Below, one piece after another: positions 11,866 to 42,107 of a stretch of DNA of 44,434 nucleotides. Under the pieces are notes generated by a model that had not been told where the DNA came from, made no database searches, and saw nothing but the letters and a program-made list of their open reading frames with translations. The stretch comes from Nemertoderma westbladi (lineage: Eukaryota > Animalia > Xenacoelomorpha). The stretch is from contig JAUCBJ010005187.1 of NCBI GenBank assembly GCA_032718475.1, positions 1 to 44,434 of the forward strand, written 5' to 3'. The position numbers and the translations under genes were made by a program. The stretch's first letter is position 1, and each line of letters starts with the position of its first letter.

Positions 11866-12324
11866 GCATAGTAGGATAGACCGTGTAGGCCGCACGAACT
11901 AGACTACTGTAGCGCATAGCCCGTAGTGCAGACTTAGGGTATTGTTACAGAGCCAGGAAACTGTCTGGTATGAAGCTAGTACGGTAATAATAAAACTGTA
12001 GCTAGTCTTCTCTGTATACAAGTAGAGCGGGGTTACTTAAGTAAGTAACCAGATGGCAGATAGAATAATAGGACATGTAGGGGGGAATATAAATAGTAAT
12101 AAAATTAACAAATTATGGCAACTGAGGGAGAAAATTCTAGAATCATTAATAAAAGGCAATGGACAAAATTTTAAATTTAGGGTGAATTGGCACATCGAGG
12201 GGAACATTTGTATAAAATTATAGGAAAACAAGAAAGGAGGTAGGCCATTACTGATTTAAACTAATTAAGACCATACTTAGTTATCTCTTGCCCTACTGAG
12301 CCTTTCTAAGGCACCACCAGTCTG

Positions 12325-17745: not shown

Positions 17746-17816
17746 AATTTATTCCGAATAATTCGGTATAAATCGGTGTAATATGTTTTCCGGCACCATG
17801 TCGGATCTGATTGTTA

Positions 17817-18260
17817 ATAAATTATTTCTACTTTTCTTTATAATTATTTCTACTTTTCTTTATACTTATTTCTACTTTTCTTTATACTTATTTCCACTTT
17901 TCTTTATAATTATTTCTAATTTTCTTTATAATTATTTCTACTTTTCTTTATAATTATTTCTACTTTTCTTTATAATTATTTCTACTTTTCTTTATAATTA
18001 TTTCTACTTTTCTTTATACTTATTTCTACTTTTCTTTATAATTATTTCTACTTTTATTTATACTTATTTCTACTTTTCTTTATAATTATTTCTACTTTTA
18101 TTTCTACTTATTTCTACTTTTCTTTATAATTATTTCTACTTTTATTTCTACTTATTTCTACTTTTCTTTATAATTATTTATACTTTTCTTAATACTTATT
18201 TCGACTTTTCTTTATAATTATTTCTACTTTTCTAAATAATTATTTCTACTTTTCTTTAAA
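17817..18260. repeat. 22-bp AT-rich minisatellite (TAATTATTTCTACTTTTCTTTA)
   Basis: About 20 tandem copies. Confidence 0.95.
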
Positions 18261-18289
18261 ATTATATCTCTATTAATTTGTATGCGACT

Positions 18290-18358
18290 ATGATTTGTTC
18301 CGGTATTATTATTGTGCTGCTTGTTAGTACCACTATGGCATGGAGTCCATACGACCCG
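18290..18358 (+). CDS. Coding exon 1 of a putative neuropeptide precursor (signal peptide)
   Basis: ATG 18290 gives MICSGIIIVLLVSTTMA-WSPYDP (hydrophobic core, T-x-A cleavage site), ending at a consensus donor CCG|GTGAGT, phase 0. Confidence 0.7.
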
Positions 18359-19154
18359 GTGAGTCGACCCATGGAACTGATATACCGGTATTCACTTTAT
18401 CTATATGTTACACTCCCGACCAACCCAATTATAAAGGTAGGGTAATAGACTAAAGGGTCGTTTGCACAAAAAGTGGCCAGATTCAAGGTTAAAATTTTTT
18501 TTCCTCAACCCTATCAAATCGTACATATTTAGAAACCCATTAGCGTGCTGATTTCAAATTTCATAGTGGTTAATTTTTTCTACCAATAGTAAAAAAGTTA
18601 TGGACGAAAAACGTATGTCTCGTCGGTAACGCTTTGTTAAACATGCGTTTCGCTTTGGACATGTCTCATCATTAACGACAGTTTATTTGCGTTACATATT
18701 TCTGTGCATGCTTTACAAGTGAGACAGCGTTACAATGCGTTACATACCGTTACGTGCAGGACAATTGGGGACATGCTTAGCAAACTCGTTAGGTTAACGT
18801 GAAATCTTGACCTTGTATATCATTAGATAGCGCTTTCAGAAGCGGTATAAATAAACTTTACCTTAAGTGAATCCGATTTATAGAAGAAAAGTTAAGCGAA
18901 AATAAGGGCGTTACAATTTCCAATAACGTAAAAAAAACTGCATGGTTAATTTTTGGGCATAACTTCTGTTAGACTTATCGTTTCGCATTCAATCGTATAT
19001 ATACGGATAGCAATAAAATGATCTTTCGGAAAATACTTACTTTGACACATTTCACACTCAAAAGTTATCTCTAAAAAACGAGCGTTACAACACATGAAAA
19101 ATTTCTAAAAACGAATTTATAGCATTTTTTATTGCCTCAAAAGCAAATTTTAAA

Positions 19155-19259
19155 GAAGTGTATCCGCATAACGACTAGTAGTGTGTATCCGAAGTGTATC
19201 CGCATAACGACTAGTAGTGTGTATCCGAAGTGTATCCGCATAACGACTAGTAGTGTGTA
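19155..19259. repeat. Three copies of 36-bp satellite A, detached from the main array
   Basis: Identical unit to the 23201-25191 array. Confidence 0.9.
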
Positions 19260-19387
19260 TATAGAATTATATTCCCTAAACGCCGTGGATTTTCAAAATT
19301 TTTGTTTTATTCGAATTAACTTTGTTAAAGATTACATTGAGTCCTCATTTGTATTTACTATATCTATTTGAACGCTGATTATTCAAG

Positions 19388-19641
19388 TGGTTCAGTAGCT
19401 CAGGCAGAATACCTAAGGACTGTGGTAAATCTAAGGTTGAGAGTAGGCTAGAGCTAAGGTCGCGAGTAGCGTGGAGGTGAGGAAGGGAGTAGCTTGCTTA
19501 GGTGGATGGTAGGAAAAACCCGGCTTTCTATTGGCTGCTATAAATAGCTTACATAGTTTAAACTATATAGTAGTTCCCCTGGTTGAGGAGATGGGAAATC
19601 ATGTACTGGGATAGGCTGCTAGGTTAACCCAACAAAACAAC
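19388..19641 (+). mobile_element. Possible degenerate SINE
   Basis: GC-richer island with a vaguely tRNA-like head (TAGCTCAGG...GACTGTGG...GGTCGCGAGT) and a CAACAAAACAAC tail; no TSD found. Confidence 0.25.
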
Positions 19642-20709
19642 TAAACTTTTAATTAATTATTGATTACAGGCAAGGATTTGGAAGGAATTTTTTAATTTCA
19701 TCAAAGGTTTACGTTTAATTAAACGAGTATCAGTTAATCGTGTTATATTGACAAATAAAGTATCATATTACAAATATATTATCTAGTTTTCTAGACTTAT
19801 GAGTAAATAATAAACTTTCAATAATGTGTCATGAGTTCCAAGGCATCCACGAGTACCGTGTTTGTATACGGGAATTAGCAAAGGAGACCTGCCATTTAGC
19901 GGAGGGGGGGGGGGGGGGGGGGGTCATTTTTGGGGGTTTTACAGCATGTAGTCGTAGGCCTAGGTTTTTGTACTACATGGTGTTGATCGTGTGGGTGGAC
20001 CACCGAACAGTTGCGAATTTTAGACTAAAATAGACAATTGTTTAAAATGTATTGTTTATTTGGTAATCCGATACTCACATTGCACATATAGAGTAAGATA
20101 TACAGTATATTGTATAATTGCAATATTAAAAGTTAAGTTACAATAATACTTTGGACAATGGTGTGGCTAGTATTATAGCCCAATGTATTGTCTGGAAGTG
20201 CCGAGCAGATAGGTATGTAGTGTAGGTAGGTAGGTAGGTAGGTGTGCACTGTGCAGTGCTTGCAAAAAAAAGGGGGGGGGGGGATATTACTATTATGTGA
20301 ATTGTGAGGTGTGAGATTGTTACTGTTGTTGTTGATAGGGAAATAATTAATTATCCTAAGTTAATCTCCAGCGCAATCAATTGTTTCACTGGAGTTCCGA
20401 TGCTGATCCAGGTATATAAAACTAAACTAAATGAGTCGAGATAGGAAATACATAAAATATTGGATGGAAAAGGTTATGGAAAATTGGTAAGACCTATGTT
20501 TTATTGATTGTTTACAGTGTACTTTAATTTAATATTTTAGAAGGTGACCTATTTCGAAAAGGGTACTATATTTTAGATTTTTTATGTTTTACGTCAGCAA
20601 AGGAATCAGAGTTCCATATCGTTGGCCCTGAAAAATAATTATTAGTGTTAGGAAATTATTGGAAAACTAATGTATCTTTGAGATGAGCAATGCGCATATC
20701 CTTGCCTTA

Positions 20710-21092
20710 AGGCCTGTTTACGCGTGGCAACTTTTAGAGCAACTTTCTCGGCAACTTTTAGAGCAAACCAGGTTGCCGATCAAGTTGCTCCGTGTAAACA
20801 CGTAAGTTGCTGAAAAAAAATGCCGTAAAATTTGCTCAACTTTTACGGCAACTTGAAGGAATTTGCGTTGGGGAATTAAAGCGGGATAATCAGATGTAAT
20901 TATCAAAAACTAGCTAGTAGATAAAATTACCCACTATTTTACAGTTAAACTCGCCAAGTTGCTCTAAAAGTTGCCGGCCAAGTTGCTGGTAAAGTTGCCA
21001 CGTGTAAACAGCGATTAAATTAAGTTGCTCCAAAAAAAGTTGCTAGTTTGCCGAGAAAGTTGATCTAAAAGTTTCCACGTGTAAACAGACCT
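20710..21092. mobile_element. Harbinger/Tourist-like MITE
   Basis: TIRs AGGCCTGTTTACGCGTGGCAACTTTTAGA / TCTAAAAGTTTCCACGTGTAAACAGACCT; TTA TSD at 20707-20709 and 21093-21095; internal AAGTTGC repeats. Confidence 0.85.
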
Positions 21093-21395
21093 TTAGGGGT
21101 CGAATAGCCTACGTTGATAGTTAGACGTAAAGGATAATATATTATTTGTTGAATAAGTTAAATTTGTATAAGTTACTGTATAATGTACAATGCTCTATAT
21201 GTATATTACATGTTCTCATACTGTATAATATTAATATTGATGTTTCAATATTTACAAAGTATAATAATTCTAATAAAAATATGTATGGTAGAAAAATACA
21301 TTATTGCGTTTTTCCTTTCTCTCTGCGTTTTTCCTCCCTCTCTGGTCATTTTTCCGCGTAATTCTTTTCCCCCCTTGTTTACAGTCTGTTTTGCC

Positions 21396-21471
21396 CCAGC
21401 CCTAGCTCAGTCGGTAGAGCGTTGGAAATTATATATGTAGTAGGTATTGAGTTCGAATCCTTGTAGGTGCG
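21396..21471 (+). pseudogene. tRNA-derived sequence (tRNA pseudogene or SINE head)
   Basis: A box TAGCTCAGTCGG (21403), B box GAGTTCGAATCC (21449); the anticodon arm does not pair. Confidence 0.6.
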
Positions 21472-21532
21472 AATTATTTTTTGTACAGAATTTCAACTCA
21501 TTTAAATTGACCGCTACAAATTAAATTGCATT

Positions 21533-23070
21533 TGTCTGTACCTAGATTAACCAATGGGACTGTAGTTATTTGATTGTAACCAATGTCGTGCAAGTTATAT
21601 ATTAGCTGTACCAATAGCTATCTTTAAAAACCTGTTAGAACCTATAGAACAATCGAGAATTTTCTCGATTGATTGCAGCACAAATTTGCTATATAAAAGG
21701 TGCGATTTCGTTCATTAGTTATCTTACACAATATCTTTCAAGCATTATATCTTCAGTCTATCTATCTTTCTTTCTCATTACATTATTTCAGATTACATTG
21801 TTTATTGTATAATAGTTATTGTTTGATTTTGTAATAAAAGTTAGAAATACTTGTCACATCTGCCCTTTTCTATCTGTTTTATCATGCTTCACCACGGTGA
21901 ACCCAACTAAGGGACAGGATGGCTGGCTAGACTTCGGGCCGCAGCAATGAACGGGAACATCTAAAGAATGTAGACAGGAGACAACCCGCAATATCATCTT
22001 AGTTATTCGCCCATCGCCTGAAAGGTTAGACAGCGTTCGATGCCTTGCTACCTAAGTGTAAGACCAAAGATCAAAGGTAGAGGTAGTGACACGCTGTACG
22101 CCTAAAATTACATCTTAGGGACTGTACTGTCTTGATTCAGGAAAAACCGCAGTAGACCTTCATATTCCTACGGGGGGGGGGGGAGAGCGCAGGCAGATAC
22201 TAGTACGCAGATAGGACTTAGGCACACCGGTACAAAGCATACACATTGGTAGGGTGCAGCAAACTGTACGCCTAACTCTTGCTAAGTACAGGTGCGTCTG
22301 CGACTATTTGTAGTACAACGGTGTCCATTCCATTGCATTAGAACTTGTAGGCTAGGAGGGTTACTGTGTTTCACCTGAATTAGGATTGTACCGTTCAGGC
22401 GGTAGGGCAGTTTACGACTAGGCGCAAATAAATTGAGGCTATTAGGGATACTAACATCTACCGTGTCCCCGCCAACATCCTGATAGGAAGTTACCAAGCC
22501 CACCTAGGTAACCAAAATTCTAGATAGGACGCCAGGCTAGCTATTAGTAACCGTACGCCTACTGTAGTAAACTAACACATTTCTTCTTAGTATTAGGGAC
22601 CTGGTAAAATAAAATTGCCGAATTCTGGGCGTAGCATTAACCTTATGCCTGGATTTGAGTCCTGGAAATACGCAAGAGGGGAAGGAGCCTTATCATTCGT
22701 GAGTATTGGACCTACAAGTTACAAAATTAGAATATTCGTAAAATGCACACCGTACCCAGTAATTATATATATGAAGGAGCAAAACTGATCTTGACTGTTC
22801 AGAATTAACACACGCGCGTTAGAAATTATTTACACCTCAAAGTATATAAAATTAACTTTTGTCCGTACTGCGCTTTGCCCGCTAGTTAGACATCTCCAAA
22901 ATCTCTGCACCTAGCTAGCGTCCCTTTCGCCCAACCATATAAATCACACCGCGGCAAAGTATACGAGCCCCTTAGTCCGTCAGTGAGTCAGCCTGATTTT
23001 AGGATTCGCTGCGCGGGATTTTGTTTTATCGAAGTTTGTCTGCTCGTAGACTGTTTTCTGCCTCACCGGT
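21533..23070 (+). mobile_element. LTR-like segment (~21533-21916) plus long non-coding leader, copy 2
   Basis: TGTC...GACA ends, three CCAAT boxes about 30 bp apart (21551, 21580, 21611), TATAAAA near 21692, AATAAA 21833, TGG at 21920 in a PBS position; the leader is homologous to 3161-4350. Confidence 0.5.
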
Positions 23071-23200
23071 TATAAGGGACCAATACTGCAATATATTCGC
23101 TTACTTGGAGTTTACTGTTTTGGTGAGAAGGTCGGATTTATGATTTGATTCACAAACTTTACAGTAAGATATTGCAGGTATTGTTACTGTCTCTTCGAAT

Positions 23201-25191
23201 TAGTGTATCCGAAATGTATCCGCAGTAGTGTGCAGTAACGACTAGTAGTGTGTATCCGAAGTGTATCCGCATAACGACTAGTAGTGTGTATCCGAAGTGT
23301 ATCCGCATAACGACTAGTAGTGTGTATCCGAAGTGTATCCGCATAACGACTAGTAGTGTGTATCCGAAGTGTATCCGCATAACGACTAGTAGTGTGTATC
23401 CGAAGTGTATCCGCATAACGACTAGTAGTGTGTATCCGAAGTGTATCCGCATAACGACTAGTAGTGTGTATCCGAAGTGTATCCGCATAACGACTAGTAG
23501 TGTGTATCCGAAGTGTATCCGCATAACGACTAGTAGTGTGTATCCGAAGTGTATCCGCATAACGACTAGTAGTGTGTATCCGAAGTGTATCCGCATAACG
23601 ACTAGTAGTGTGTATCCGAAGTGTATCCGCATAACGACTAGTAGTGTGTATCCGAAGTGTATCCGCATAACGACTAGTAGTGTGTATCCGAAGTGTATCC
23701 GCATAACGACTAGTAGTGTGTATCCGAAGTGTATCCGCATAACGACTAGTAGTGTGTATCCGAAGTGTATCCGCATAACGACTAGTAGTGTGTATCCGAA
23801 GTGTATCCGCATAACGACTAGTAGTGTGTATCCGAAGTGTATCCGCATAACGACTAGTAGTGTGTATCCGAAGTGTATCCGCATAACGACTAGTAGTGTG
23901 TATCCGAAGTGTATCCGCATAACGACTAGTAATGTGTATCCGAAGTGTATCGGCATAACGACTAGTAGTGTGTATCCGAAGTGTATCCGCATAACGACTA
24001 GTAGTGTGTATCCGAAGTGTATCCGCATAACGACTAGTAGTGTGTATCCGAAGTGTATCCGCATAACGACTAGTAGTGTGTATCCGAAGTGTATCCGCAT
24101 AACGACTAGTAGTGTGTATCCGAAGTGTATCCGCATAACGACTAGTAGTGTGTATCCGAAGTGTATCCGCATAACGACTAGTAGTGTGTATCCGAAGTGT
24201 ATCCGCATAACGACTAGTAGTGTGTATCCGAAGTGTATCCGCATAACGACTAGTAGTGTGTATCCGAAGTGTATCCGCATAACGACTAGTAATGTGTATC
24301 CGAAGTGTATCCGCATAACGACTAGTAGTGTGTATCCGAAGTGTATCCGCATAACGACTAGTAGTGTGTATCCGAAGTGTATCCGCATAACGACTAGTAG
24401 TGTGTATCCGAAGTGTATCCGCATAACGACTAGTAGTGTGTATCCGAAGTGTATCCGCATAACGACTAGTAATGTGTATCCGAAGTGTATCCGCATAACG
24501 ACTAGTAGTGTGTATCCGAAGTGTATCCGCATAACGACTAGTAGTGTGTATCCGAAGTGTATCCGCATAAAGACTAGTAATGTGTATCCGAAGTGTATCC
24601 GCATAACGACTAGTAGTGTGTATCCGAAGTGTATCCGCATAACGACTAGTAGTGTGTATCCGAAGTGTATCCGCATAACGACTAGTAGTGTGTATCCGAA
24701 GTGTATCCGCATAACGACTAGTAGTGTGTATCCGCATAACGACTAGTAGTAGTGTGTATCCGAAGTGTATCCGCATAACGACTAGTAATGTGTATCCGAA
24801 GTGTATCCGCATAACGACTAGTAGTGTGTATCCGAAGTGTATCCGCATAACGACTAGTAGTAGTGTGTATCCGAAGTGTATCCGCATAACGACTAGTAGT
24901 GTGTATCCGAAGTGTATCCGCATAACGACTAGTAGTAGTGTGTATCCGAAGTGTATCCGCATAACGACTAGTAGTGTGTATCCGAAGTGTATCCGCATAA
25001 CGACTAGTAGTGTGTATCCGAAGTGTATCCGCATAACGACTAGTAGTGTGTATCCGAAGTGTATCCGCATAACGACTAGTAGTAGTGTGTATCCGAAGTG
25101 TATCCGCATAACGACTAGTAGTGTGTATCCGAAGTGTATCCGCATAACGACTAGTAGTGTGTATCCGAAGTGTATCCGCATAACGACTAGT
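23201..25191. repeat. 36-bp satellite A (GTGTATCCGAAGTGTATCCGCATAACGACTAGTAGT), ~55 near-identical copies
   Basis: Tandem array; several distal units carry an extra TAG. Confidence 0.97.
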
Positions 25192-25219
25192 ACTCGATTG
25201 TAGATCAGGAAATAAACTT

Positions 25220-25411
25220 TTGGCCGATATATAGTTGGCCGATTGGCCGATATATAGTTGGCCGATTGGCCGATATATAGTAGGCCGATTGGCCGATATA
25301 TAGTTGGCCGATATATAGTTGGCCAATTGGCTGATATATAGTTGGCCGATTGGCCGATATATAGTTGGCCGATTGGCCGATATATAGTTGGCCGATTGGC
25401 CGATATATAGT
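25220..25411. repeat. 23-bp repeat (GGCCGATATATAGTTGGCCGATT)
   Basis: About 8 tandem copies inside the Harbinger-type element. Confidence 0.9.
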
Positions 25412-26005
25412 TTACTGGAAGTATTTCTCACTAACATTTGGTTATGATTGTTTGTATCTCAAAAATATATAATGGGACATCGCAAAAAATGCCTTTTCAT
25501 GCTAGTAATTCGATAGAAATATGTCAAATTGCTTAAAACAATGGCCATTGCCAATTAAACAATTGCCAAAAAATGGGCAAAAATTAACTCTACAGAAATA
25601 TATAAAGGTTTATATGGTTTTGGTTATTTTCTGCTGAGTTACGGCTTATAAAATGGCGAAATTACAGGGGACGCAATTTGGCAACTTTTTGTGCAAACGA
25701 CCCAAACAGACCCTATTAGAAAATTTCACAATTATTTAACTCTTGGACTATTGAAAGAGTTTTTTATTATTGAATAATAATAACTTGATCACGTTCAGTA
25801 GGGAAAAAAATTGGAAGAGTTTAGTAAAGTAGTACATAGCATTATTGCGGCAAAACCAATTTAGTACAACTCATGAGAATGAATTGAACCAAAACCATAA
25901 AGATTTGTGGCAACTAAAAATACAGATAAACTTTTATCGCGATTAGCAAAGTCCCCTAGATTGAAACGTCCATTCTCAAATATTTCTAAAATATGTAACT
26001 CATTT

Positions 26006-27072
26006 ATGTAAGGGCCACCACAAACACCAATGTAAGGGCCAACACAAACACCAATGTAAGGGCCAACACAAACACCAATGTAAGGGCCAACACAAACACC
26101 AATGTAAGGGCCAACACAAACACCAATGTAAGGGCCAACACAAACACCAATAACACAAACACCAATGTAAGGGCCAACACAAACACCAATGTAAGGGCCA
26201 ACACAAACACCAACGTAAGGGTCAACACAAACACCAATGTAAGGGCCAACACAAACACCAATAACACAAACACCAATGTAAGGGCCAACACAAACACCAA
26301 TGTAAGGGCCAACACAAACACCAATGTAAGGGCCAACACAAACACCAATGTAAGGGCCAACACAAACACCAATGTAATGGCCAACACAAACACCAATGTA
26401 AGGGCCAACACAAACACCAATGTAAGGGCCAACACAAACACCAATGTAAGGGCCAACACAAACACCAATGTAAGGGCCAACACAAACACCAATGTAAGGG
26501 CCAACACAAACACCAATGTAAGGGCAACCACAAACACCAATGTAAGGGCCAACACAAACACCAATGTAAGGGCCAACACAAACACCAATGTAAGGGCCAA
26601 CACAAACACCAATGTAAGGGCCAACACAAACACCAATGTAAGGGCCAACACAAACACCAATGTAAGGGCCAACACAAACACCAATGTAAGGGCCAACACA
26701 AACACCAATAACACAAACACCAATGTAAGGGCCAATACAAACACCAATAACACAAACACCAATGTAAGGGCCAACACAAACACCAATGTAAGGGCCAACA
26801 CAAACACCAATGTAAGGGCCAACACAAACACCAATGTAAGGGCCAACACAAACACCAATGTAAGGGCAACACAAACACCAATGTAAGGGCCAACACAAAC
26901 ACCAATGTAAGGGCCAACACAAACACCAATGTAAGGGCCAACACAAACACCAATGTAAGGGCCAACACAAACACCAATGTAAGGGCCACCACAAACACCA
27001 ATGTGAGGGCCAACACAAACACCAATGTAAGGGCCAACACAAACACCAATGTAAGGGCCAACACAAACACCA
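26006..27072. repeat. 24-bp minisatellite (ATGTAAGGGCCAACACAAACACCA)
   Basis: About 45 copies, some truncated to 15 bp. Confidence 0.97.
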
Positions 27073-27098
27073 AGTTGCATCTGCATCCCCCCAGCACA

Positions 27099-27264
27099 AT
27101 GTTTAAACATTGAGCCTACGATAATAGAAGGACAGACAGGCAAACAGACACTGCCCATTAGCCGTACTGATTTCTATGCTAGTTAACTCATTGTGATTCC
27201 GTTAGTTCGATGTTTAAACATTGAGCCTACGATAATAGAAGGACAGACAGGCAAACAGACACTG
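27099..27264. repeat. 55-bp direct duplication
   Basis: ATGTTTAAACATTGAGCCTACG...CAGACACTG at 27099 and 27210. Confidence 0.9.
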
Positions 27265-27344
27265 GCAATTATTAATCTAGTGATATATGGTATTGTAAAC
27301 GATACAAGAGTGTCGGGGAAAAAACAATATTATTTTACATTTAG

Positions 27345-27396
27345 GATGATGAACCTGTATGGGGAAGGAGCCTTCGTAACAAAGCCCTAAAAAAAG
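27345..27396 (+). CDS. Coding exon 2 of the putative neuropeptide precursor
   Basis: TTTTACATTTAG| acceptor, AAG|GTAAGT donor; 52 nt, DDEPVWGRSLRNKALKK, phase 0 to 1. Confidence 0.7.
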
Positions 27397-27607
27397 GTAA
27401 GTATAAAATGATATACGTGGCCTATGGGGGGGGGGGGGGGGGGGGGGGGCGTATACTAAGTTAATTATTGACCTAGAAAATAAAAATAAAATTATATAAA
27501 CCCAAATCTAAAACGAACTCTAATACTGAACATAATAACGCTAAATAATCGAACACAAAAAAATCATTCTCGCCAGAAATTACCAAAAAATTCAGGTGGA
27601 AAAGATT

Positions 27608-30600
27608 TATCCTACGTTATGTGTAACACTCTGGATACTCATGTATCCTACGTTATGTGTAACACTCTGGATACTCATGTATCCTACGTTATGTGTAACA
27701 CTCTGGATACTCATGTATCCTACGTTATGTGTAACACTCTGGATACTCATGTATCCTACGTTATGTGTAACACTCTGGATACTCATGTATCCTACGTTAT
27801 GTGTAACACTCTGGATACGCATGTATCCTACGTTATGTGTAACACTCTGGATACTCATGTATTCTACGTTATGTGTAACACTCTGGATACTCATGTATCC
27901 TACGTTATGTGTAACACTCTGGATACTCATGTATCCTACGTTATGTGTAACACTCTGGATACTCATGTATTCTACGTTATGTGTAACACTCTGGATACTC
28001 ATGTATCCTACGTTATGTGTAACACTCTGGATACTCATGTATCCTACGTTATGTGTAACACTCTGGATACTCATGTATTCTACGTTATGTGTAACACTCT
28101 GGATACTCATGTATCCTACGTTATGTGTAACACTCTGGATACTCATGTATCCTACGTTATGTGTAACACTCTGGATACTCATGTATCCTACGTTATGTGT
28201 AACAACACATTCGAAAAGAGTAAGGGGAAGCTATGGACCTTTCAATACCCTAATGGAACCAAAGCACAACTGGATTACATCCTTATAAACAAAAAGTGGA
28301 TAAATAGCATGATCAACTGCGAGGCATACAGCTCGTTCAACCTAATTGGTTCGGACCACAGAATTGTGACTGCAGAGATCAGACTCAGTTTGAGAGCCAG
28401 CAAACCCAGGACAAGCAAGCAAATCAACTATGACTGGGAGAAACTCAGAACTGACAATGCTGTAAAGGATGCTTATACAGTAGAAGTTCAAAACCGCTTT
28501 GAAGCACTTCAGTCAATGGATGAAGACCAATCCACCGATTCAATATACCAGAATATAATAACAGCCCACAAGGAATCAGCTAAGAGGCATATCCCCCAGA
28601 AACCTAAACGAAAACAGTATGTGCCATGGCAAAACTCTGAGGTTACTTGTAAGAGATAAGATCTTAAGATAGCCTACAAAGTTAAAACCGAACAACCAAC
28701 AACCGAAAACATTAACAAGGTTGAGAAAGCTAAGGACGATCTTAAATTGGCCTACAACATCAGCCAGGAAAAGTACATACAGGATAAAACTGAAGCAATT
28801 ACAACTGCTCACATACAGCAACAATCAAGACTTACCTGGCAAACTGTAAATGAGGTATCTGATCGGAAAAGTTGTGCAAAGGGGCGCCTCAAAGCCGATA
28901 GTCCTGAAGAACGTGTTGGGAAGTGGAAAAATCACTTCAGCAACTTGCTTGGGCAGCCACCAAACATCGAGGTCAGCCCTACAAGGAAAATATATGACAA
29001 GACACTACCTATAGAAACAGGGGACTTCACACCTGCCGAACTCCAAAGAAGCATTAGAAGCATGTCCAATAATAAAGCGAGTGGATTAGATGAAATCCCA
29101 GCGGAGGTATGGAAAACCGGAGTGCTAAATAGACCATTATTGAATGTTTGCAACCGGATGTTAAAAGGGGAAAAGCCACCACCAATTTGGACTAAAGGTC
29201 AACTAAAGCCTCTCCCCAAGAAAGGAGACCTCGGCATACCAACAAACTATCGTGGGATCTGTCTGCTTGTGGTAGCTGCCAAAATATACAATAAAATGAT
29301 TCTATATAGGATTAGGCCTCACATAGAGAAACTACTGCGTAAGAGCCAAAACGGATTTCGACCAAACAGATCAACAATAGCTCAGATACTTGCACTACGG
29401 AGACTGATTGAAGGAATTAAGTCAAAGAATCTCCCCGCAGTCATGACTTTTGTGTACTTCAAGAAGGCATTCGACTCCATCCATAGAGGTAAAATGCTTG
29501 AAATCCTAAGAGCTTATGGAATACTAGAAGTAATTGTTGCTGGCATTGGATTGCTATATTGTGACACAGAAGCGCAGGTACTCTCACCAGATGGTGAAAC
29601 TGAGTTTTTCTCAATCCTGGCTGGCGTACTGCAAGGTGACACATTAGCACCATTACTATTTGTAATTGTGCTGGATTACGCAATGACGACAGCCACAAAG
29701 GGTGAAGATCTGGGATTTACACTTCAAGAACGCAGAAGTAGTAGATATCCGGCAACTACAGTCACAGACACCGACTTTGCGGATGACATCGCCCTGTTCT
29801 CTAATACGCTAGCAGATGCACAGCTTCTGCTAAATAAAGTGGAGAGGGCTGCTAAGGAGGTTGGATTGCATATAAATGCTACCAAGACCGAATTCATGAC
29901 CTTTAATGTTGATGGAAACTTGACAACCATTGATAATAATCAACTAAGGAAGGTCGATGACTTCCAGTACCTTGGATCATGGATAGAGAGTAGCAAAAAG
30001 GACATAGAAGTTAGGAAAGCAAAGGCTTGGGTAGCTCTATCAAAAATGGATACTATCTGGAAATCAGATCTCTCCAGGCACCTGAAGACTAAGTTCTTTC
30101 GAGCCACAGTGGAAAGTGTATTTTTATACGGGGGTGAGACCTGGACACTGATTAAATCACTTGAACAACGAATTGATGGTTGCTACACAAGACTACTAAG
30201 GGCAGCCCTAAACATCAGCTGGAGACAACACATGACAAACGCCAAGCTTTATGGTACAATACCACCTGCATCAACCACCCTGCGTGAACGCAGATTAAGA
30301 CTCAGTGGGCACTGCTGGCGAAGTAAAGACGAGGTCATACCAGATCTACTTCTCTGGCAACCAACTCATGGAAAGCGTAGTCGTGGACGACCTGCCATAA
30401 CATATATAGATCAACTTGAAAGGGATACTGAACTTGGGAGAAACGAAATTGCGACAACTATGGAGAATCGGGAAGCCTGGATGGATCTCATTTCCACTGT
30501 CCGAGTTCGCTCGACCTAGTAGTAGTAGTAGTGTAACACTCTGGATACTCATGTATTCTACGTTATGTGTAACACTCTGGATACTCATGTATCCTACGTT

Positions 30601-32100
30601 ATGTGTAACACTCTGGATACTCATGTATCCTACGTTATGTGTAACACTCTGGATACTCATGTATCCTACGTTATGTGTAACACTCTGGATACTCATGTAT
30701 CCTACGTTATGTGTAACACTCTGGATACTCATGTATCCTACGTTATGTGTAACACTCTGGATACTCATGTATCCTACGTTATGTGTAACACTCTGGATAC
30801 TCATGTATCCTACGTTATGTGTAACACTCTGGATACTCATGTATCCTACGTTATGTGTAACACTCTGGATACTCATGTATCCTACGTTATGTGTAACACT
30901 CTGGATACTCATGTATTCTACGTTATTTATCCTACGTTATGTGTAACACTCTGGATACTCATGTATCCTACGTTATGTGTAACACTCTGGATATTCATGT
31001 ATCCTACGTTATGTGTAACACTCTGGATACTCATGTATCCTACGTTATGTGTAACACTCTTGATATTCATGTATCCTACGTTATGTGTAACACTCTGGAT
31101 ACTCATGTATCCTACGTTATGTGTAACACTCTGGATACTCATGTATCCTACGTTATGTGTAACACTCTGGATACTCATGTATCCTACGTTATGTGTAACA
31201 CTCTGGATACTCATGTATCCTACGTTATGTGTAACACTCTGGATACTCATGTATCCTACGTTATGTGTAACACTCTGGATACTCATGTATCCTACGTTAT
31301 GTGTAACACTCTGGATACTCATGTATCCTACGTTATGTGTAACACTCTGGATACTCATGTATCCTACGTTATGTGTAACACTCTGGATACTCATGTATCC
31401 TACGTTATGTGTAACACTCTGGATACTCATGTATCCTACGTTATGTGTAACACTCTGGATACTCATGTATCCTACGTTATGTGTAACACTCTGGATACTC
31501 ATGTATTCTACGTTATTTATCCTACGTTATGTGTAACACTCTGGATACTCATGTATCCTACGTTATGTGTAACACTCTGGATACTCATGTATAAAAGATT
31601 TATCCTACGTTATGTGTAACACTCTGGATACTCATGTATCCTACGTTATGTGTAACACTCTGGATATTCATGTATCCTACGTTATGTGTAACACTCTGGA
31701 TACTCATGTATCCTACGTTATGTGTAACACTCTGGATACTCATGTATCCTACGTTATGTGTAACACTCTGGATACTCATGTATCCTACGTTATGTGTAAC
31801 ACTCTGGATACTCATGTATCCTACGTTATGTGTAACACTCTGGATACTCATGTATCCTACGTTATGTGTAACACTCTGGATACTCATGTATTCTACGTTA
31901 TGTGTAACACTCTGGATACTCATGTATCCTACGTTATGTGTAACACTCTGGATACTCATGTATTCTACGTTATGTGTAACACTCTGGATACTCATGTATC
32001 CTACGTTATGTGTAACACTCTGGATACTCATGTATTCTACGTTATGTGTAACACTCTGGATACTCATGTATCCTACGTTATGTGTAACACTCTGGATACT
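27608..32100. repeat. 36-bp satellite B (TATCCTACGTTATGTGTAACACTCTGGATACTCATG), split by a LINE
   Basis: Arrays at 27608-28204 and 30531-32100. Confidence 0.97.
28205..30530 (+). mobile_element. RTE-group (RTE/RTEX-like) LINE, 5'-truncated, inactive copy
   Basis: APE C-terminus (QLDYIL, GSDH), RT (NYRGI, QNGFR, GVLQGDTLAP, FADD, YLGS), C-terminal GKRSRGRP. Premature TAA at 28657; first catalytic Asp changed to Tyr (FVYFKKAFD); (TAG)n tail; TSD GTGTAAC(A). Confidence 0.95.
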
Positions 32101-32154
32101 CGTATTCGAATTGTCTATATTCCATGTGTATAGCGTAATATAATGTAATGAACA

Positions 32155-32430
32155 CATGTTGTATATTTGGAGTCTCATGTTGTATATTTGGAGTCTCATG
32201 TTGTATATTTGGAGTCTCATGTTGTATATTTGGAGTCTCATGTTGTATATTTGGAGTCTCATGTTGTATATTTGGAGTCTCATGTTGTATATTTGGAGCC
32301 TCATGTTGTATATTTGGAGTCTCATGTTGTATATTTGGAGTCTCATGTTGTATATTTGGAGTCTCATGTTGTATATTTGGAGTCTCATGTTGTATATTTG
32401 GAGTCTCAGGTTGTATATTTGGTGTCTCAG
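32155..32430. repeat. 21-bp minisatellite (CATGTTGTATATTTGGAGTCT)
   Basis: About 13 copies. Confidence 0.95.
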
Positions 32431-32467
32431 TATTTAAATTTGTTTTTTTAATTGTTTAATTCTACAG

Positions 32468-32538
32468 AAGAAGGGGCGAATGATTCTCTCGACAATAAAG
32501 ATTTCCGTCGAACACTAATGTCGGGTGACGTAATGTAG
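32468..32538 (+). CDS. Coding exon 3 (probably terminal) of the putative neuropeptide precursor
   Basis: T-rich tract plus TCTACAG| acceptor; phase 1 continues exon 2 as EEGANDSLDNKDFRRTLMSGDVM-stop (TAG 32536-32538). Confidence 0.6.
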
Positions 32539-32669
32539 CCGAGATATGAGTTTATATGACTGCAATTAGTTTATATGACTATCATGAACAATATTCCGCC
32601 GGCATAATGGTAATGGTGTGGATTTGGAAATAGTAAAATTTGTTTTTTATTACATGCGAAGTAGGTTAG

Positions 32670-33120
32670 AGGCCGATATCCGGACACGCCTGGTAAAGGG
32701 CCGATATCCGGACACGCCTGGTAAAGGGCCGATATCCGGACACGCCTGGTAAAGGGCCGATATCCGGACACGCCTGGTAAAGGGACGATATCCGGACACG
32801 CCTGGTAAAGGGCCGATATCCGGACACGCCTGGTAAAGGGCCGATATCCGGACACGCCTGGTAAAGGGCCGATATCCGGACACGCCTGGTAAAGGGCCGA
32901 TATCCGGACACGCCTGGTGAAGGGCCGATATCCGGACACGCTTGGTAAAGGGCCGATATCCGGACACGCCTGGTAAAGGGCCGATATCCGGACACACCTG
33001 GTAAAAGGCCGATATCCGGACACGCCTGGTAAAGGGCCGATATCCGGACACGCCTGGTAAAGGGCCGATATCCGGACACGCCTGGTAAAGGGCCGATATC
33101 CGGACACGCCTGGTAAAGGG
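32670..33120. repeat. 28-bp minisatellite (GGCCGATATCCGGACACGCCTGGTAAAG)
   Basis: About 16 copies. Confidence 0.95.
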
Positions 33121-33220
33121 GTAAAAAATACCTAGAAATTCTTAAATCTTAAAATATAATGTTAGAAGAAAATGTTTAAATCATGTTTTTCATTAATATA
33201 TTAAAAACTATTCATTTTAC

Positions 33221-35809: not shown

Positions 35810-35864
35810 CATTTTACAAATATGTAAACAAACTACAATAAATAATCACCAGCCCTAACTTTAC

Positions 35865-36006
35865 CTGTATAGTCGCAAAGACGAGCTTCTTTTAGGTTGC
35901 CACTAGCAACCATTGCTATGGGAACGCGACATTCGGAACAACGGAAACTCTGGGCAACCAAACCCTTCGTTGGACGAATTAACATACAAATGTGTTTCTT
36001 ATGAAC
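35865..36006 (-). CDS. DEF8: DEF8 homolog, internal exon (start of the Rubicon-homology region)
   Basis: TTTTCTTAG| ... G|GTAAAG; VHKKHICMLIRPTKGLVAQSFRCSECRVPIAMVASGNLKEARLCDYTG matches the GLxxQxxxCxxC...ARxCDYTG motif of DEF8/PLEKHM1/Rubicon proteins. Confidence 0.9.
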
Positions 36007-36161
36007 CTAAGAAAACATCGGGTTTAATTCCTGTCAGTAAAGTAAATAAAAATCAAATGAAATGTTATAAACCCAATGTAAATGTAGAGATTACAAAAAA
36101 CATCGAAAATGTGTGAATAATATATCATTATTATTATGACAATAAATATATATCAAGATAC

Positions 36162-36245
36162 CTGATTAGCTGCACACGTCCTTGTAACCTTGTTGGAACA
36201 GCGAATGTGACAGTTGAAACGGCATTTACTACATTTATACCAAAC
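36162..36245 (-). CDS. DEF8: DEF8 homolog, internal exon (second half of the C1 zinc finger)
   Basis: TTTCCTATAG| ... CAG|GTATCT; 84 nt, VWYKCSKCRFNCHIRCSNKVTRTCAANQ; phase 0 on both sides, in frame with neighbouring exons. Confidence 0.9.
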
Positions 36246-36929
36246 CTATAGGAAAGAGTTAGGTACAATATTATCAAGCATTATTATAATAAACCCACAA
36301 GTATAAGTATTACAACGGCGTATTACAGCAATAGATAATGGCCCTGGCGGCAGAAAACGATAAACATTGATTTTCACTAGCAGAGTATAATAATAAGTAA
36401 AGAAGGAACGATGACCTTAAAGTCAAAATGTATTCCATATTAATCAGAAGTATCAAATAATAGGTTAAAGAAACTACATCGTGTTGTACTGAACTCAGTG
36501 GGTTAAATAATACTACCATTACAGAAAGAAGTATTGTAAAAAAGTATAAGTTTTATTCGGCCGTTAGACCAACCAGGGATTCCGCACAAAGTTATTTCCA
36601 GTGCGGTCCCCCCAGAACTTTACTCCCCAGAGGAAACACCAGTACGCATTTAGCTACCATTTAAGGATGCAAGACAGATGCGCCCTGGCTGGTCCCTTTA
36701 AAGCATTTGTGTCGAAACGAAAACTTAGTTTATCTATATATGTAAGTAATTATTCATCAGACTGATTGGTTAGTCTAATGGTTTTAGTTGTGTTGTTCAG
36801 CTGGTGATTTAGAGAGTGCCATTTGATTTAAGTACCAGTGTTGGGGGCGGAGAAAGTATCTTGTTTATTGAATTAATAAATAGATAATTATGTAAACTGA
36901 ATTAGTTGTTAATTTGCCTGGTAGAACAT

Positions 36930-36943
36930 TGGCGACGAGAATG
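36930..36943 (+). promoter_or_regulatory. Primer-binding site, tRNA-Ser(GCT)-type
   Basis: TGGCGACGAGAATG one base after the LTR-terminal CA. Confidence 0.8.
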
Positions 36944-39057
36944 TCGAGTCCAAAAATATATTTAAATAATATTTGTTAATTAATTTTGTTACTGTATAAT
37001 AATATTTTATTACTATAATAATTTATTATGCCCTGAAATATTATCTATTGATTATTTGCGGGAAATTTGCCAACAACACAAACTGCTTTATACTGGCAAA
37101 ACTAAACCGGAGATTATTGATGTCATTCAACAATTTATGGTCGAGCATGGTTTATGTCTTAGGGCTCGATGTCTTGTTGGGTCTTGTTCAAGCCTCACAT
37201 GTTTCGGATGTCCCGATCGCGCCATCTCCGATTTTACCTCTAAATCTAAATCAGCCAGCAGCTTTTGATATGCATGAGTCTGGTAGTGATCGTCGCTGGG
37301 AGGCGTACCGAAGGGATTTTCAGACATACATACATACATACATACATACATACATACATACATACCTTCAGGCATTAGGTTCATCAATTATTGACGCGCA
37401 GAAGAGGGCTCTGTTTTTGCATTCTGCAGGTCAAGATCTGGCAAGATCGGTGGAAACCATGGTCATTTCTGAGCAAGCTGGTGAATAAAGCTATGATGCT
37501 TTTTTGATACGCCACATTGGACTACAATTTAGACCCATTGATTCTAAATTGTTTGAAATATATCGGCTGGGAGAAATGTCACAAGAGCAAGCAGAGTCCA
37601 GTCCATTAATGATTACGTAATGCGACTCAGGAAACAAGCAAAATATTGCAAGCTAACATGCAGCAATTGTTCTGCATCAATGCAATTGCTCCGCCACACA
37701 ACGATACCTTATTACGTACACGTGTATTTGAAAGAGGTCTTAATAAGCTAGATACCGTTTTGTCCTTGGCTAGAGCCATGGAAGTAGCCAAACGGCAATC
37801 CGATGCAATGAATGGGACTTCACCATCGGATGTGAATACGAGCAAGCATTTTGACAACAAAAGAACACCATCATTAGCTAAAGATAGACCAGCAGGGCAA
37901 CATGAGCAGCCAATAAAATGTAAATTTTGTGGTGGTTTCTATCGGCTAAGTCGAGAGGTTTGTCCCGGATTTGGCATTGTGGATTTTGCAAAGGGGGGAA
38001 TCATTTCGCACGATGCTGCCCAGCAAGATTCAACAACTTCGCCCCTAGAAACTCCACTTGGGTTCCACGAGGGGGGCTTTTCAGTCGCAGCCGTCCACTA
38101 ACATGATTGGTCACGAGAACGTTGTTGTGGGAGAAGATTTTGCAAACGCACTGATTGTACATATTCATTCCTTGTAAAAGGGAGGTCGCAAATTTTTGGT
38201 ACCTTAGTAATTGAAGGAACACCTAGAAAATTGCTGTTAGATTCAGGGGCATCTAGGAACATAATTCCGCTTTCATATTTACCTGGTCGATATCAGTTGT
38301 CAAAAACAGCAGCATTTGTGTGTATTTGGTAAATCAGCTGTAATCCCACTTGGGACGGCAAATTTGTCAGTTTGTTTTCCGGGACATGAGGAAGTTTATC
38401 GTGAATTGATTATAGTTCAAGACAATATTGGTTCTCCAATCCTTGGACTTCAGTTATGTGTAGAATTTAACTTTATTTCTCAGAATCCAGATACAGTTCA
38501 TGCAGTAGAACCGATAACCAAAACACCCTGGAATAATGTAATTGACTTGGTCAAAGCATATTCTGATATTTTTTCACCCAAAATAGGGAAAGTGAAAGGG
38601 TTTCAAGCTCACATTTACCTAAAACATGACGCGAAGCCAGTGTATAGGAAAGCGAGACATGTGCCCTTAGTGCTACAGTCGAAGGTTAAGGACACATTGG
38701 AAGACATGGTAAAACGGGGTACACTTAAGCCAGTGGCCACATCAGACTGGGCATCACCAATGGTTACAGTTGCTAAGCAAGGTAGTGAGGTAAGACTTTG
38801 TGCAGACTACAAAGGCACGGTTGATGGACAAATTGACACAGAAGCATATCCCCTTCCACTATTTGATAATATATTCACAAAATTGGCAAATAAAAAATTA
38901 TTCACGAAATTGGATATGCGGACTTGTTACAAACAATTTGAACTAGATGTGACCTCCAAGGAAATTCTTACAGTTAACACAACAAAAGGTATCATGTAAT
39001 ACCAACGATTACCCTACGGAATATACTCAGCCTCTGGCATAGTTTAAAGAGACTACT

Positions 39058-40430
39058 AGGATCGGCATGCTGCATTGCAGCTGCATTTTTAAGAATGCTG
39101 TGCCGGCTTGTCGACAAAATTGCGACACCACAACTCCCTATCACCCATGACATTTTATACATCATCCGCATCTTCAAGGCCAGTGTCCTTTAAGATGCAT
39201 CTCAAGAATGTCATGGACTGTCCACCATGCTTATTCACTCCATGAGGCTGCCAAAGTACAAGATTATGCACTGGCTGGTCCTCACGGCAAAAGCAATGTC
39301 CTGCAAAGCGGAGGTGACTTTGTTCTAGTGTCAAGCTTGGGGGAACCAATGTTATATAGTGTCTGGTTGGAGATGTGTGCATTGCACTTGACCCAATGAA
39401 CTCGGCGTAGCATTCTTATGAATGTGCCATCCAGAGATTCGGTGTCCTCAGCAGTTAGAGCCCAGCATGGATTCCCATAGAGGAGTACTGGAACTACTGC
39501 TGCTCTAAATAATCGGACCTTAAGTTTCCGATTAATTCTCGTTGACTTCTAAATCCTGGAAAGCCTATTCAAGGCTGCCCATGCCTTTCCCTTACGTATT
39601 CGAAGGTCATCACCTGACTTCCGGATCCATGATCCCAGGTAACTGAAGTCGTCCACATGCTCAAGCATACCATCCTTTGAGCTTATGCTCATCCGATCAG
39701 AGACTTGCTGAGGACTTTCAAAGTTAACTGTCAAAATTTTGGTCTTTCTGGAGTTAATATAAAGACCAACACTAGAAGTAGCATGTTCTAATGAGCTGAG
39801 GAGCCGTTGGGCTCCCTCTAGTGATTCTGAGAGTACTCCTAGGTCATCAGCAAAGTCTAGATCAGTTAGGTACTTGGCAGGATTTCCTCGACTTCTGGAG
39901 CCAGTAGGTGGATTTATCATCACCCCATCATCATTATGATGATCTAAGGACATGCATAGAACATAGTCAACCACAATAATGAACAAGAATGGTGCAAGTG
40001 TGTCTCCTTGGAGGACGCCCCATAACACTTCAAATGGTTCTGTGTCACCGTCAACAGTAGACACAAATGTTGTCGAACCACCGTATACTGATCTGATTGC
40101 TGCAATAATTTCATCAGGAATCCCATATAATAAAAGTATGCTGAACATACGTGAGCGAGAGATTGAATCAAAGGCCTTGAAGAAGTCAACAAAGATAACA
40201 GCCAGATGCCTGTCTTTCTTTTTGATAACTCTTCAATTATCCTTCTAAGTGCCAAAATGGGCTCCATGGTCCCACGACCTTTACGGAACCCATTCTGATT
40301 TCCACGGAGCAGTCTCTCAATGGGATCTCTGATGCGATTTAATAGAATTCTATTGTATAGCTTTGCAGCAATCGAGATCAATGAGATTCCCCGAAAAGAA
40401 CCATAGAGTGTTAGGTTACCCTTCTTGCAA
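39058..40430 (-). mobile_element. Older RTE-group LINE fragment (different family) nested antisense in the Gypsy RT
   Basis: FRGISL, NQNGFR, GVLQGDTLAPFLF, FADD, YLGS, LWQP; frameshifted. Confidence 0.9.
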
Positions 40431-40911
40431 CAAAGGTCTAGGGGCAGTTCTCTCACATAGAGTAGTCTACAAAGAATATCCAATCGATTATGGTTCATAG
40501 ACATTAACCGAAGCAGAGTACAATTACTCAAACATAGACAGAGAAGCATTGGGTATCATGAATTGGAAAATTATAATCCTATTTGTGGGGTCAACGTTTC
40601 GAGCTAGTGACTGACCAGTGGCCACAAACCTCTACTGACCATTTTTGGTAGCAAAAAGGGTCTCCCAGAACTCGTGTCTCAACGTCTTATGCAATACGCT
40701 TATCTGCATTTAACTACACAGTTGAATATCGCAAGAGTTCACTTCATGGTAACGCCGATGCCTTAAGTCGGGCTCCAACACAGTCTGAAACTTCAAAGTG
40801 GGAGACAATAAATATGGTGATAGATGAAGTAGGTCCAATTAATATTGATGAAATTAAAACAGAAACATACAAAGATGAGGACCTACGCTCTGTTATTGAT
40901 ATGATAAGACA

Positions 40912-41091
40912 AGCAAGCAAAGCAAAGCAACAAGCAAACAGTCGGCTGAAGCCGGAGGCGACCCGAAGGCTCCTCTTTCGATGGCTGCTACCCTAGGGTA
41001 GGGGTGGGCGCTACTCCTATCCCAAGATTTGCTCCCAGTTATTTAACTGGTACTCATTTTATCGACCCATCGACGATACTCATTTTTATTT
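40912..41091 (-). mobile_element. 5'-truncated SINE-like insertion in the Gypsy pol
   Basis: 12-bp TSD TATGATAAGACA (40900-40911, 41092-41103); (TTGC)n-like tail; GGTCGATAAAATGAGTACCAG core on the minus strand. Confidence 0.75.
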
Positions 41092-41822
41092 TATGATAAG
41101 ACAGTATGTTGATATTCAACCTTCGGGGATGTTGAAACCATTATGGCAGAAGAAATTCACATTCTCTGTTGAAGATAATGTTTTATTTATGGGTATCGTA
41201 GCCGGGTAGTTTTGCCAAAGTCACTTAGTAGAAGGTATTTAGATTAATTACATCGCTAAGAAGAAATCCTTGGCTCGGTTACACATTTGATGGCCGGGTT
41301 TAGACACCCAACTTGAACAATTGTCTTCAAACTGTGAAACTTGTCAGTCCAACATGAGCTCCAGGCCGCAGCAATTTTGTGACTGGCAACGTTTGGGAGC
41401 GGGTACATGTGGATTATTTCTCGTCCAATGGTCAGGACCACTTATTTCTAGTAGATTATGGGAGCAAGTGGATCGAAGTAGAGACGATCTAAGGCAACTT
41501 TAATGAAATTATTCGAATGGATTTAGTAGATTTGGTTTCCATTTACGGTTACATTCTGATGGCGGGATACAATTTACAAACAAATAATTCAAAGACAAAC
41601 TTGCGGAATGGGGTATCGAATACACAGTAAGTCCCGCTTATCACCCCCAATCCAATGGATTAGCAGAGAGGGCCGTCCGGACAGTCAAAGAATCAATATT
41701 AAAAAACGGTGTTACAAAATTAAGAGAGATATTGTTCCGGTACTGCGCGACTCATAATTATGTAAACTGTATTAGTTGTTAATTTGCCCGGTAGAACACA
41801 AACATATAGCCTATACACCCAC

Positions 41823-42107
41823 CTGCATGAACCCGAGAATGATACCCCCACAACAGTCACAGTAGTGTCTGGCAGTGATCGAGTCGGTTTTGGCGAAGGA
41901 GTGACCCAGTACCGCAGTGGCGCTCTCCCCGGCAACTAGGGCCGTCTCTACTGGGGAGATAACGTCGCACAGTTTCAACCGGAGTTCAACCAACCGCTGC
42001 ACCATAATGTTCCGCTTCTCCTTGGCCGTGGTGCCGCCCGATATGGCTGTCTTCAGACCCCGGATAGCAGCCCGTAACTCCTCAACGTCGCTCTCGTTAC
42101 AATGGAA
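41823..42107 (-). CDS. DEF8: DEF8 homolog, internal exon (N-terminal helices plus first half of the C1 domain)
   Basis: TTTTACAG| ... CAG|GTGGGT; 285 nt, FHCNESDVEELRAAI...MVQRLVELRLKL...VLGHSF...YCDCCGGIILGFMQ; parallels the remembered DEF8 pattern SDVxxLRxAI...VxRLxxLRLKL...HxF...CDxC..IIxGxxQ. Confidence 0.9.

What the first reader, a model, noticed from the sequence alone, without database searches (positions are those of the whole stretch)
18290..32538. Hidden 3-exon neuropeptide-precursor-like gene, antisense inside the DEF8 locus
Seen: three tiny exons with strong splice sites and matching phases (0, then 1) join to 192 nt encoding MICSGIIIVLLVSTTMA/WSPYDPDDEPVW-GR-SLRNKAL-KK-EEGANDSLDNKDF-RR-TLMSGDVM*. 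Established: signal peptide plus peptide-Gly-basic residue is the signature of amidated neuropeptides, and N-terminal trimming at acidic residues occurs in cnidarians and ctenophores. Inference: it yields WSPYDPDDEPVW-amide or (E)PVW-amide, which I cannot assign to a known family. It is invisible to ORF scanning (69, 52 and 71 nt across 14 kb of repeats).
Basis: partly seen in the sequence, partly recalled or inferred. Interest (0 to 1): 0.85.

Follow-up and report, generated by a model that had tools for sequence, protein, structure and literature searches.

The report
Tiny hidden gene for Wamide-like peptide
Three very short, well-bordered exons spread over 14 kb of repeats in an unidentified animal join in frame into a 63-residue protein that is predicted to be secreted and cut into a tryptophan-amide signalling peptide resembling the Wamide family, and the gene likely sits inside an intron of DEF8 on the opposite strand.

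Summary
The exons (69, 52, 71 nt) have GT-AG borders, matching phases and give one 63-codon frame. A blind scan of both strands returns this chain as the best signal-peptide/Gly-basic gene model; 1 of 1000 shuffled strands scores as high, 0 of 1520 with a composition filter. DEF8 is confirmed on the minus strand, but its Rubicon-domain exons are not in the window, so nesting is inferred. Best reading: a single-copy precursor whose signal peptide is followed directly by an acidic 12-residue Trp...Val-Trp-amide. It meets the sequence features of Wamide/MIP peptides but not their multi-copy precursor, so I do not file it as a MIP. No transcript, orthologue or peptide evidence was obtained; my RNA test was underpowered, and no close relative of this animal's DEF8 turned up either, so the blank protein searches say little. 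The scan had not noted this gene on other DNA. A probable new neuropeptide gene of an ordinary kind; more interesting only if the animal is an acoel.

The parts
18290..18358 (+). Exon 1 (coding part): start codon, predicted 17-residue signal peptide (18290-18340) and first six residues of the predicted amidated peptide; phase-0 donor
   Evidence: donor rank 4 of 1795; 7-residue hydropathy peak 4.21; A at -3 of the ATG
27345..27396 (+). Exon 2: last six residues of the predicted peptide, Gly-Arg (27363-27368), a 7-residue spacer and Lys-Lys (27390-27395); phase-1 donor
   Evidence: (acceptor rank 14 of 1953, donor rank 2 of 1795)
32468..32538 (+). Exon 3 (coding part): acidic 13-residue spacer, Arg-Arg (32506-32511), 8-residue tail, stop
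   Evidence: acceptor rank 2 of 1953; nearest and strongest of the acceptors that close the frame
18359..27344 (+). Predicted intron 1, 8986 nt; 3351 nt tandem arrays; holds a 7.2-kb segment between 29-nt inverted repeats
27397..32467 (+). Predicted intron 2, 5071 nt; 2443 nt tandem arrays and a reverse-transcriptase frame at 28660-30519
17767..18289 (+). Upstream region: only TATAAA box of 17700-18290 at 17767, a G-free 22-bp array (17820-18269), no AG from 17724 to 18325, and a 3-codon upstream frame at 18282 overlapping the start; possible promoter and 5' UTR (weak)
32632..32637 (+). Variant polyadenylation-like hexamer 94 nt after the stop; no AATAAA in 32539-33260 (weak)
35865..42107 (-). 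Three exons of the likely host gene DEF8 (42107-41823, 36245-36162, 36006-35865); the last ends in a phase-1 donor just before the Rubicon-homology domain

Best explanation
The three exons likely form a real spliced gene for a small prepropeptide that is predicted to enter the secretory pathway and to release one acidic 12-residue peptide with Trp at both ends and a Val-Trp-amide end, which would act as a neuropeptide on a receptor. Shown by the sequence: exon borders, open frame, hydrophobic N-terminus ending in Thr-x-Ala, Gly-Arg after Trp29, and dibasic sites at 39-40 and 54-55. Inferred: signal peptidase cuts after Ala17; prohormone convertases cut at the single Arg31 and the two dibasic sites; carboxypeptidase removes the Arg; the amidating enzyme turns Gly30 into the amide; residues 32-38, 41-53 and 56-63 are spacers or non-amidated co-products. 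The Tyr in an acidic context may be sulfated (inference from recalled rules). The gene is likely nested antisense in a DEF8 intron longer than 35.8 kb, a passive arrangement in a genome of very large repeat-filled introns.
For: Site ranks; blind recovery as best chain on both strands; nulls 1 of 1000 and 0 of 1520; an open ATG plus a hydrophobic run of this strength precedes 2 of 972 T-rich YAG-by-frame tests, a set that by its filter should include this site; 18 of 46 post-signal residues charged, no Cys; exon GC 43-44% against 16-33% in five of six flanks (41% in the sixth); Wamide definition in PMC4307165 and PMC7270403; DEF8 exons end before the Rubicon domain and a 128-sequence profile finds no further exon, best 3.0 bits.
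Against: No spliced read, orthologue or peptide seen. Matrix, signal rule and filters are hand-set and were chosen after seeing the gene; loose thresholds give chains in 129 to 193 of 400 shuffles; a per-window chance near 0.001 is not decisive in a scan of some 250,000 windows. The signal peptide is short with no basic n-region. The amidation site is a single Arg with no basic residue at -4, -6 or -8 (a recalled rule for monobasic cleavage). No canonical poly(A) signal. Exon 3 is not the only acceptor that closes the frame (3 at strict, 6 at moderate thresholds).
Confidence: 0.62

Rival explanations
1. The gene is real and secreted, but the single Arg is not cut or the cells are not neurons: the product is a gland, mucus, pheromone or gamete peptide, or the active pieces are the non-amidated ones.
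For: Only one Gly-basic site, monobasic; no repeats of a motif; non-amidated active peptides are common in acoels (PMC6188537 section 9). Expression site cannot be read from sequence.
Against: Trp-Gly-Arg is the standard amidation signature; Gly-Arg followed by a non-basic residue occurs in several listed xenacoelomorph precursors (read by eye); acidic spacers between basic sites fit a prohormone.
Confidence: 0.17
2. The exons are real but belong to a different transcript: an AG at 18326-18327 inside the 'signal peptide' is the true acceptor and the real first exon lies further upstream, or another last exon is used.
For: The AG follows a 600-nt AG-free zone and keeps the same frame; T-rich acceptor tracts tend to read as hydrophobic codons; other acceptors can close the frame.
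Against: That AG ranks only 166 of 1953; no upstream phase-2 ATG exon has a donor of score 2.5 or more (0 from 37 donors), and none of 26 open exons at score 0 or more is hydrophobic; the AG-free zone is mostly a G-free repeat; hydrophobic run plus ATG is rare before T-rich acceptors (2 of 972).
Confidence: 0.1
3. A chance alignment of splice-like sites and codons in intron DNA, or a dead gene remnant; nothing is transcribed.
For: No transcript or homologue found; the coding total is only 192 nt; scan-wide multiple testing; post hoc filters.
Against: 1 of 1000 and 0 of 1520 shuffles match it; the minus strand yields a best chain of 10.2 against 25.9; three separate exons each contribute a fitting part; frame intact despite large insertions in both introns.
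Confidence: 0.11

Closest known systems
MIP / allatostatin-B / WWamide (Wamide superfamily), e.g. Platynereis MIP6-9 (PMC4307165 passages; PMC7270403 parts 1-2 of 5)
   Same: [quoted passage not shown]
   Different: One copy instead of a repetitive precursor; ten residues between the Trps against seven in Platynereis MIP6-9; acidic and Pro-rich rather than basic or neutral; N-terminus made by signal peptidase rather than a basic site; receptor unknown.
Cubozoan pQPPGVWamide (Tcy-VWamide, PMC6402141 passages) and ctenophore NPWamide (PMC9525235 supplement row)
   Same: Pro-containing peptides ending in Trp-amide, acidic residues near the peptide; the ctenophore NPWa precursor is also short (about 70 residues) and single-copy.
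   Different: No Gln for pyroglutamate, no Gly before Val-Trp, single copy against 4-6 in cubozoans; in NPWa the peptide ends the precursor, here it begins it.
GnRH/AKH/corazonin-type precursors, including xenacoelomorph GnRH/AKH-like ones (PMC6188537 supplement parts 2, 4, 5)
   Same: Architecture: signal peptide, then directly a single 10-12 residue amidated peptide, then an associated C-terminal stretch.
   Different: No shared peptide motif; the xenacoelomorph peptides end Trp-x-Pro-Gly/Ala/Ser-amide before dibasic sites and their associated peptide carries two Cys, absent here.
DEF8 (Rubicon-homology family, PF13901 with C1 domain PF00130)
   Same: The three minus-strand exons match named DEF8 proteins at 35-58% per exon; this is the neighbouring, likely host gene.
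   Different: Only the N-terminal half lies in the window; about 40-43% identical to the 15 best of 131 homologues alike, so it does not place the animal.

Membership tests
Amidated neuropeptide precursor (general) | N-terminal signal peptide | tested here: inconclusive
   Passes a crude rule (7-residue hydropathy 4.21, Thr at -3, Ala at -1); SignalP not available
Amidated neuropeptide precursor (general) | Peptide-Gly followed by basic residue(s) | tested here: met
   Trp29-Gly30-Arg31; monobasic
Amidated neuropeptide precursor (general) | Dibasic convertase sites and hydrophilic spacers | tested here: met
   Lys-Lys and Arg-Arg; 18 of 46 post-signal residues charged, no Cys
Amidated neuropeptide precursor (general) | Transcribed and spliced | tested here: inconclusive
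   No RNA holder listed; 8 of 14 small-share runs laid, none on exon 2; none shown to be this organism
Amidated neuropeptide precursor (general) | Expression in neurons and processed peptide detected | not testable with these tools
   needs in situ, single-cell or peptidomic data
Wamide (MIP/AstB/WWamide) | Amidated C-terminal Trp after a small aliphatic residue | tested here: met
   Val28-Trp29-Gly30 against the definition; amidation itself predicted
Wamide (MIP/AstB/WWamide) | Second, N-terminal Trp; 9-12 residues | tested here: met
   Trp18 and Trp29, 12 residues if cut after Ala17; spacing wider than in Platynereis MIP6-9
Wamide (MIP/AstB/WWamide) | Repetitive precursor with several peptide copies | tested here: not met
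   One copy; no further strong internal exon in either intron; definition
Wamide (MIP/AstB/WWamide) | Activates a MIP/sex-peptide receptor orthologue or MIP-gated channel | not testable with these tools
   no genome held; needs a receptor assay
GnRH/AKH/corazonin | Family peptide motif (pyroGlu start or the xenacoelomorph motif) and Cys-bearing associated peptide | tested here: not met
   Compared by eye with the precursors
Nested intronic gene | Host exons on both sides of the gene | tested here: inconclusive
   DEF8 exons on one side only; downstream exons absent from 1-35860

The most novel reading that the evidence does not exclude
The animal is an acoel and this is the missing Wamide/MIP-type ligand of that group: a single-copy, intron-riddled precursor that motif searches for multi-copy precursors could not find, matching the one acoel receptor that clusters with MIP-type receptors (PMC6188537; PMC7270403 calls MIP signalling in xenacoelomorphs uncertain).
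Probability: 0.08. Interest if true: 0.68.

Novelty: new member of a known kind. Interest (0 to 1): 0.37.

Why it matters
New lineage-specific neuropeptide precursors are found in nearly every invertebrate survey and nested genes are common, so on its own this is a modest addition. Its value is as a ready test: the predicted peptide can be synthesised, an antibody against Val-Trp-amide already exists, and a single-copy Trp...Val-Trp-amide would be missed by the multi-copy motif screens used for xenacoelomorphs. If the animal is an acoel it bears on the open question whether Wamide/MIP signalling survives in Xenacoelomorpha.

Tried and rejected
RNA: the one run search used 27116-27600, where only 52 nt would be transcribed; no RNA holder was listed, 14 rows had a share of 0.04. 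Eight of the 14 were laid; none covered exon 2, one gave a short unrelated match outside it. None was shown to hold this organism, so this is no evidence either way; a DEF8 exon would have been the better probe. No genome is held. Protein search with the exon-1 frame, lengths 28-90: no candidate; a DEF8 exon searched the same way against longer proteins also found nothing at E 0.001 among 424 candidates, so close relatives seem absent from the database. Pfam: 0 families for the three exon frames. Metagenome contigs: 0 matches to an exact exon-2 stretch; 6 matches to a degenerate exon-2 motif, of which 5 were displayed by my script, all GC-rich with no signal peptide or precursor context, taken as chance; L004 was not displayed. 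A DEF8-like reading of exon 1 in another frame (tblastn E 0.08-0.13) was rejected: in-frame stop, wrong spacing, 2.6 bits with a 4-sequence profile and not among the top 8 with a 128-sequence profile. Placing the animal by DEF8 failed. The bacterial promoter scan is not applicable. Literature: 'PVWamide' in 0 papers; no matching precursor in the xenacoelomorph lists (supplement parts 2-5 of 12 read; term search) or in the places shown from the ctenophore/cnidarian supplement (only the first two places per term seen). NPY, CCK/sulfakinin, luqin and phoenixin were considered from memory and dropped for lack of their C-terminal motifs.

Full report
Observation. The window has no N. Both introns are largely tandem arrays and mobile elements, and each exon is single-copy in the window.

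Is it more than chance? I scored every GT and AG outside the tandem arrays with a consensus matrix set by hand from recalled animal splice frequencies. The two donors rank 4 and 2 of 1795 and the two acceptors 14 and 2 of 1953 on the plus strand; the DEF8 sites on the minus strand rank 3, 43 and 20 of 1762 and 11, 91 and 147 of 1625, so the candidate's sites are at least as strong as those of a real neighbour. A blind search for chains of ATG exon with signal-like N-terminus, internal exon giving Gly-basic, and terminal exon with a dibasic site returns only the start at 18290 and the internal exon 27345-27396 at the strict and moderate settings, one start at every setting, and nothing on the minus strand. 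In block-wise dinucleotide shuffles a chain appears in 0, 8, 129 and 193 of 400 strands as thresholds loosen, so the mere existence of a chain is not evidence; its strength is. Without fixed thresholds the real chain scores 25.9, reached by 1 of 1000 shuffles (876 had some chain, median 14.6); requiring a hydrophilic post-signal region, 0 of 1520 exceed 20.7. These filters were chosen after seeing the gene, and the scan covers very many windows, so I put chance or a dead remnant at about 0.1.

The N-terminus. An AG at 18326-18327 lies inside the predicted signal peptide, after 600 nt without AG, which raises the possibility that the hydrophobic codons are just an acceptor tract. Against this, the site ranks 166 of 1953, no suitable upstream coding exon exists in the window (0 open exons from 37 good donors; 0 hydrophobic of 26 at a lower cut), and only 2 of 972 T-rich YAG-by-frame tests show an open ATG with so hydrophobic a run. 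The ATG has A at -3; a three-codon upstream frame overlaps it, and the only TATAAA nearby is at 17767.

Anatomy and mechanism. After a predicted cut at Ala17 come residues 18-29: Trp first, three Pro, one Tyr, four acidic residues, and Pro-Val-Trp last, followed by Gly-Arg. Then a 7-residue piece, Lys-Lys, an acidic 13-residue piece, Arg-Arg and an 8-residue tail. Eighteen of the 46 post-signal residues are charged and none is Cys. By established prohormone processing (recalled) this yields one amidated 12-mer and three non-amidated pieces. The weak point is the single Arg, which lacks upstream basic residues. Every processing step is inferred.

DEF8. The first minus-strand exon found 7 proteins at E up to 0.001 among 1.84 billion; three of the seven clusters carry the name DEF8 and four of the seven proteins bear the Rubicon-homology domain. 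tblastn with these maps three exons. The third ends at a phase-1 donor just before the Rubicon domain, and profiles of that domain from 4 and from 128 sequences find nothing in the window (best 3.3 and 3.0 bits; 20-residue pieces of a training sequence score 6 to 28, an optimistic power check). So DEF8 either continues beyond base 1, putting the peptide gene in an intron over 35.8 kb, or is truncated here. Unchecked earlier notes describe 40-60 kb introns in this genome, which makes nesting plausible.

Which animal? DEF8 is about 40-43% identical to its 15 best of 131 homologues, mollusc, nemertean, hemichordate and unnamed alike: a fast-evolving lineage with no close relative among those fetched. 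One unchecked note calls the genome a likely acoel; I could not test this.

Comparison with known peptides. No Pfam family, homologue or metagenome counterpart was found, and 'PVWamide' occurs in 0 papers of the library. The library lacks most subscription papers, bioRxiv supplements are closed, and I read only two supplementary sets, so a published match could be missed. The closest resemblance is to Wamides: amidated Trp after a small aliphatic residue (PMC4307165 passages), paired Trps and 9-12 residues (PMC7270403, parts 1-2 of 5). The same review defines the precursors as repetitive and warns that Trp-amide ends arise in unrelated families; this precursor is single-copy, so it works like a Wamide at best and is not filed as one. 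The layout of signal, single peptide and tail recalls GnRH/AKH precursors, without their motif. In xenacoelomorphs no MIP precursor was found, although one acoel receptor groups with the cluster that includes MIP receptors (PMC6188537: abstract, sections 9 and 25, passages, supplement parts 2-5); that study's motif screen required three or more repeated sites. A 2026 review (PMC13551398 passages) says acoel repertoires may be under-sampled.

Expression. Not shown. The run search and both read-laying runs were uninformative (see Tried and rejected).

Verdict. Observation confirmed; interpretation partly supported. Probably a real, unannotated single-copy peptide precursor (about 0.6 for the amidated neuropeptide reading, about 0.9 for real exons), a new member of a known kind. 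Interest 0.37; 0.68 if it proves to be an acoel Wamide/MIP ligand (probability about 0.08).

Noticed in passing
window 18455-25703: 29-nt inverted repeats (93% complementary) 7.2 kb apart, each flanked by AAA: a likely DNA transposon with a 3-bp target duplication filling most of intron 1.
   Followed up: partly
window 20705-21097: About 390-bp element with 50-nt inverted ends and internal repeats, MITE-like.
   Followed up: no
window 28660-30519 (+) and 33235-35813 (-): Two very similar LINE-type reverse-transcriptase frames in opposite orientation on either side of exon 3 (RVT_1 above cut-off; endonuclease hit below cut-off); a third, degraded RT at 39549-40232.
   Followed up: partly
window 9649-11022 and 37003-41782: Remnants of LTR retrotransposons: DUF1759 (below cut-off) plus aspartyl protease, BEL/Pao-like; and a broken gag-pol-integrase series, Ty3/Gypsy-like by eye.
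   Followed up: partly
window 12310-12852 (+): 180-codon frame that by eye recalls a DEDD 3'-5' exonuclease domain (recalled); no Pfam family and no solved-structure match.
   Followed up: partly
window 32671-33120: 28-bp array of 16 copies starting 133 nt after the stop; each unit reads as a donor-like site on the plus strand and an acceptor-like site on the minus strand, possibly one of the splice-junction satellites that earlier notes describe in this genome; its frames do not match DEF8.
   Followed up: partly
window 18283-18381 (+): In another frame exon 1 reads as a weak look-alike of the missing DEF8 exon (E 0.08-0.13, in-frame stop); judged coincidence.
   Followed up: yes
window 27345-27396: By eye, the spacer after the amidation site faintly resembles one stretch of the unassigned acoel precursor Cmac_7555.1 (an RNxALK motif); too short to mean much.
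   Followed up: no
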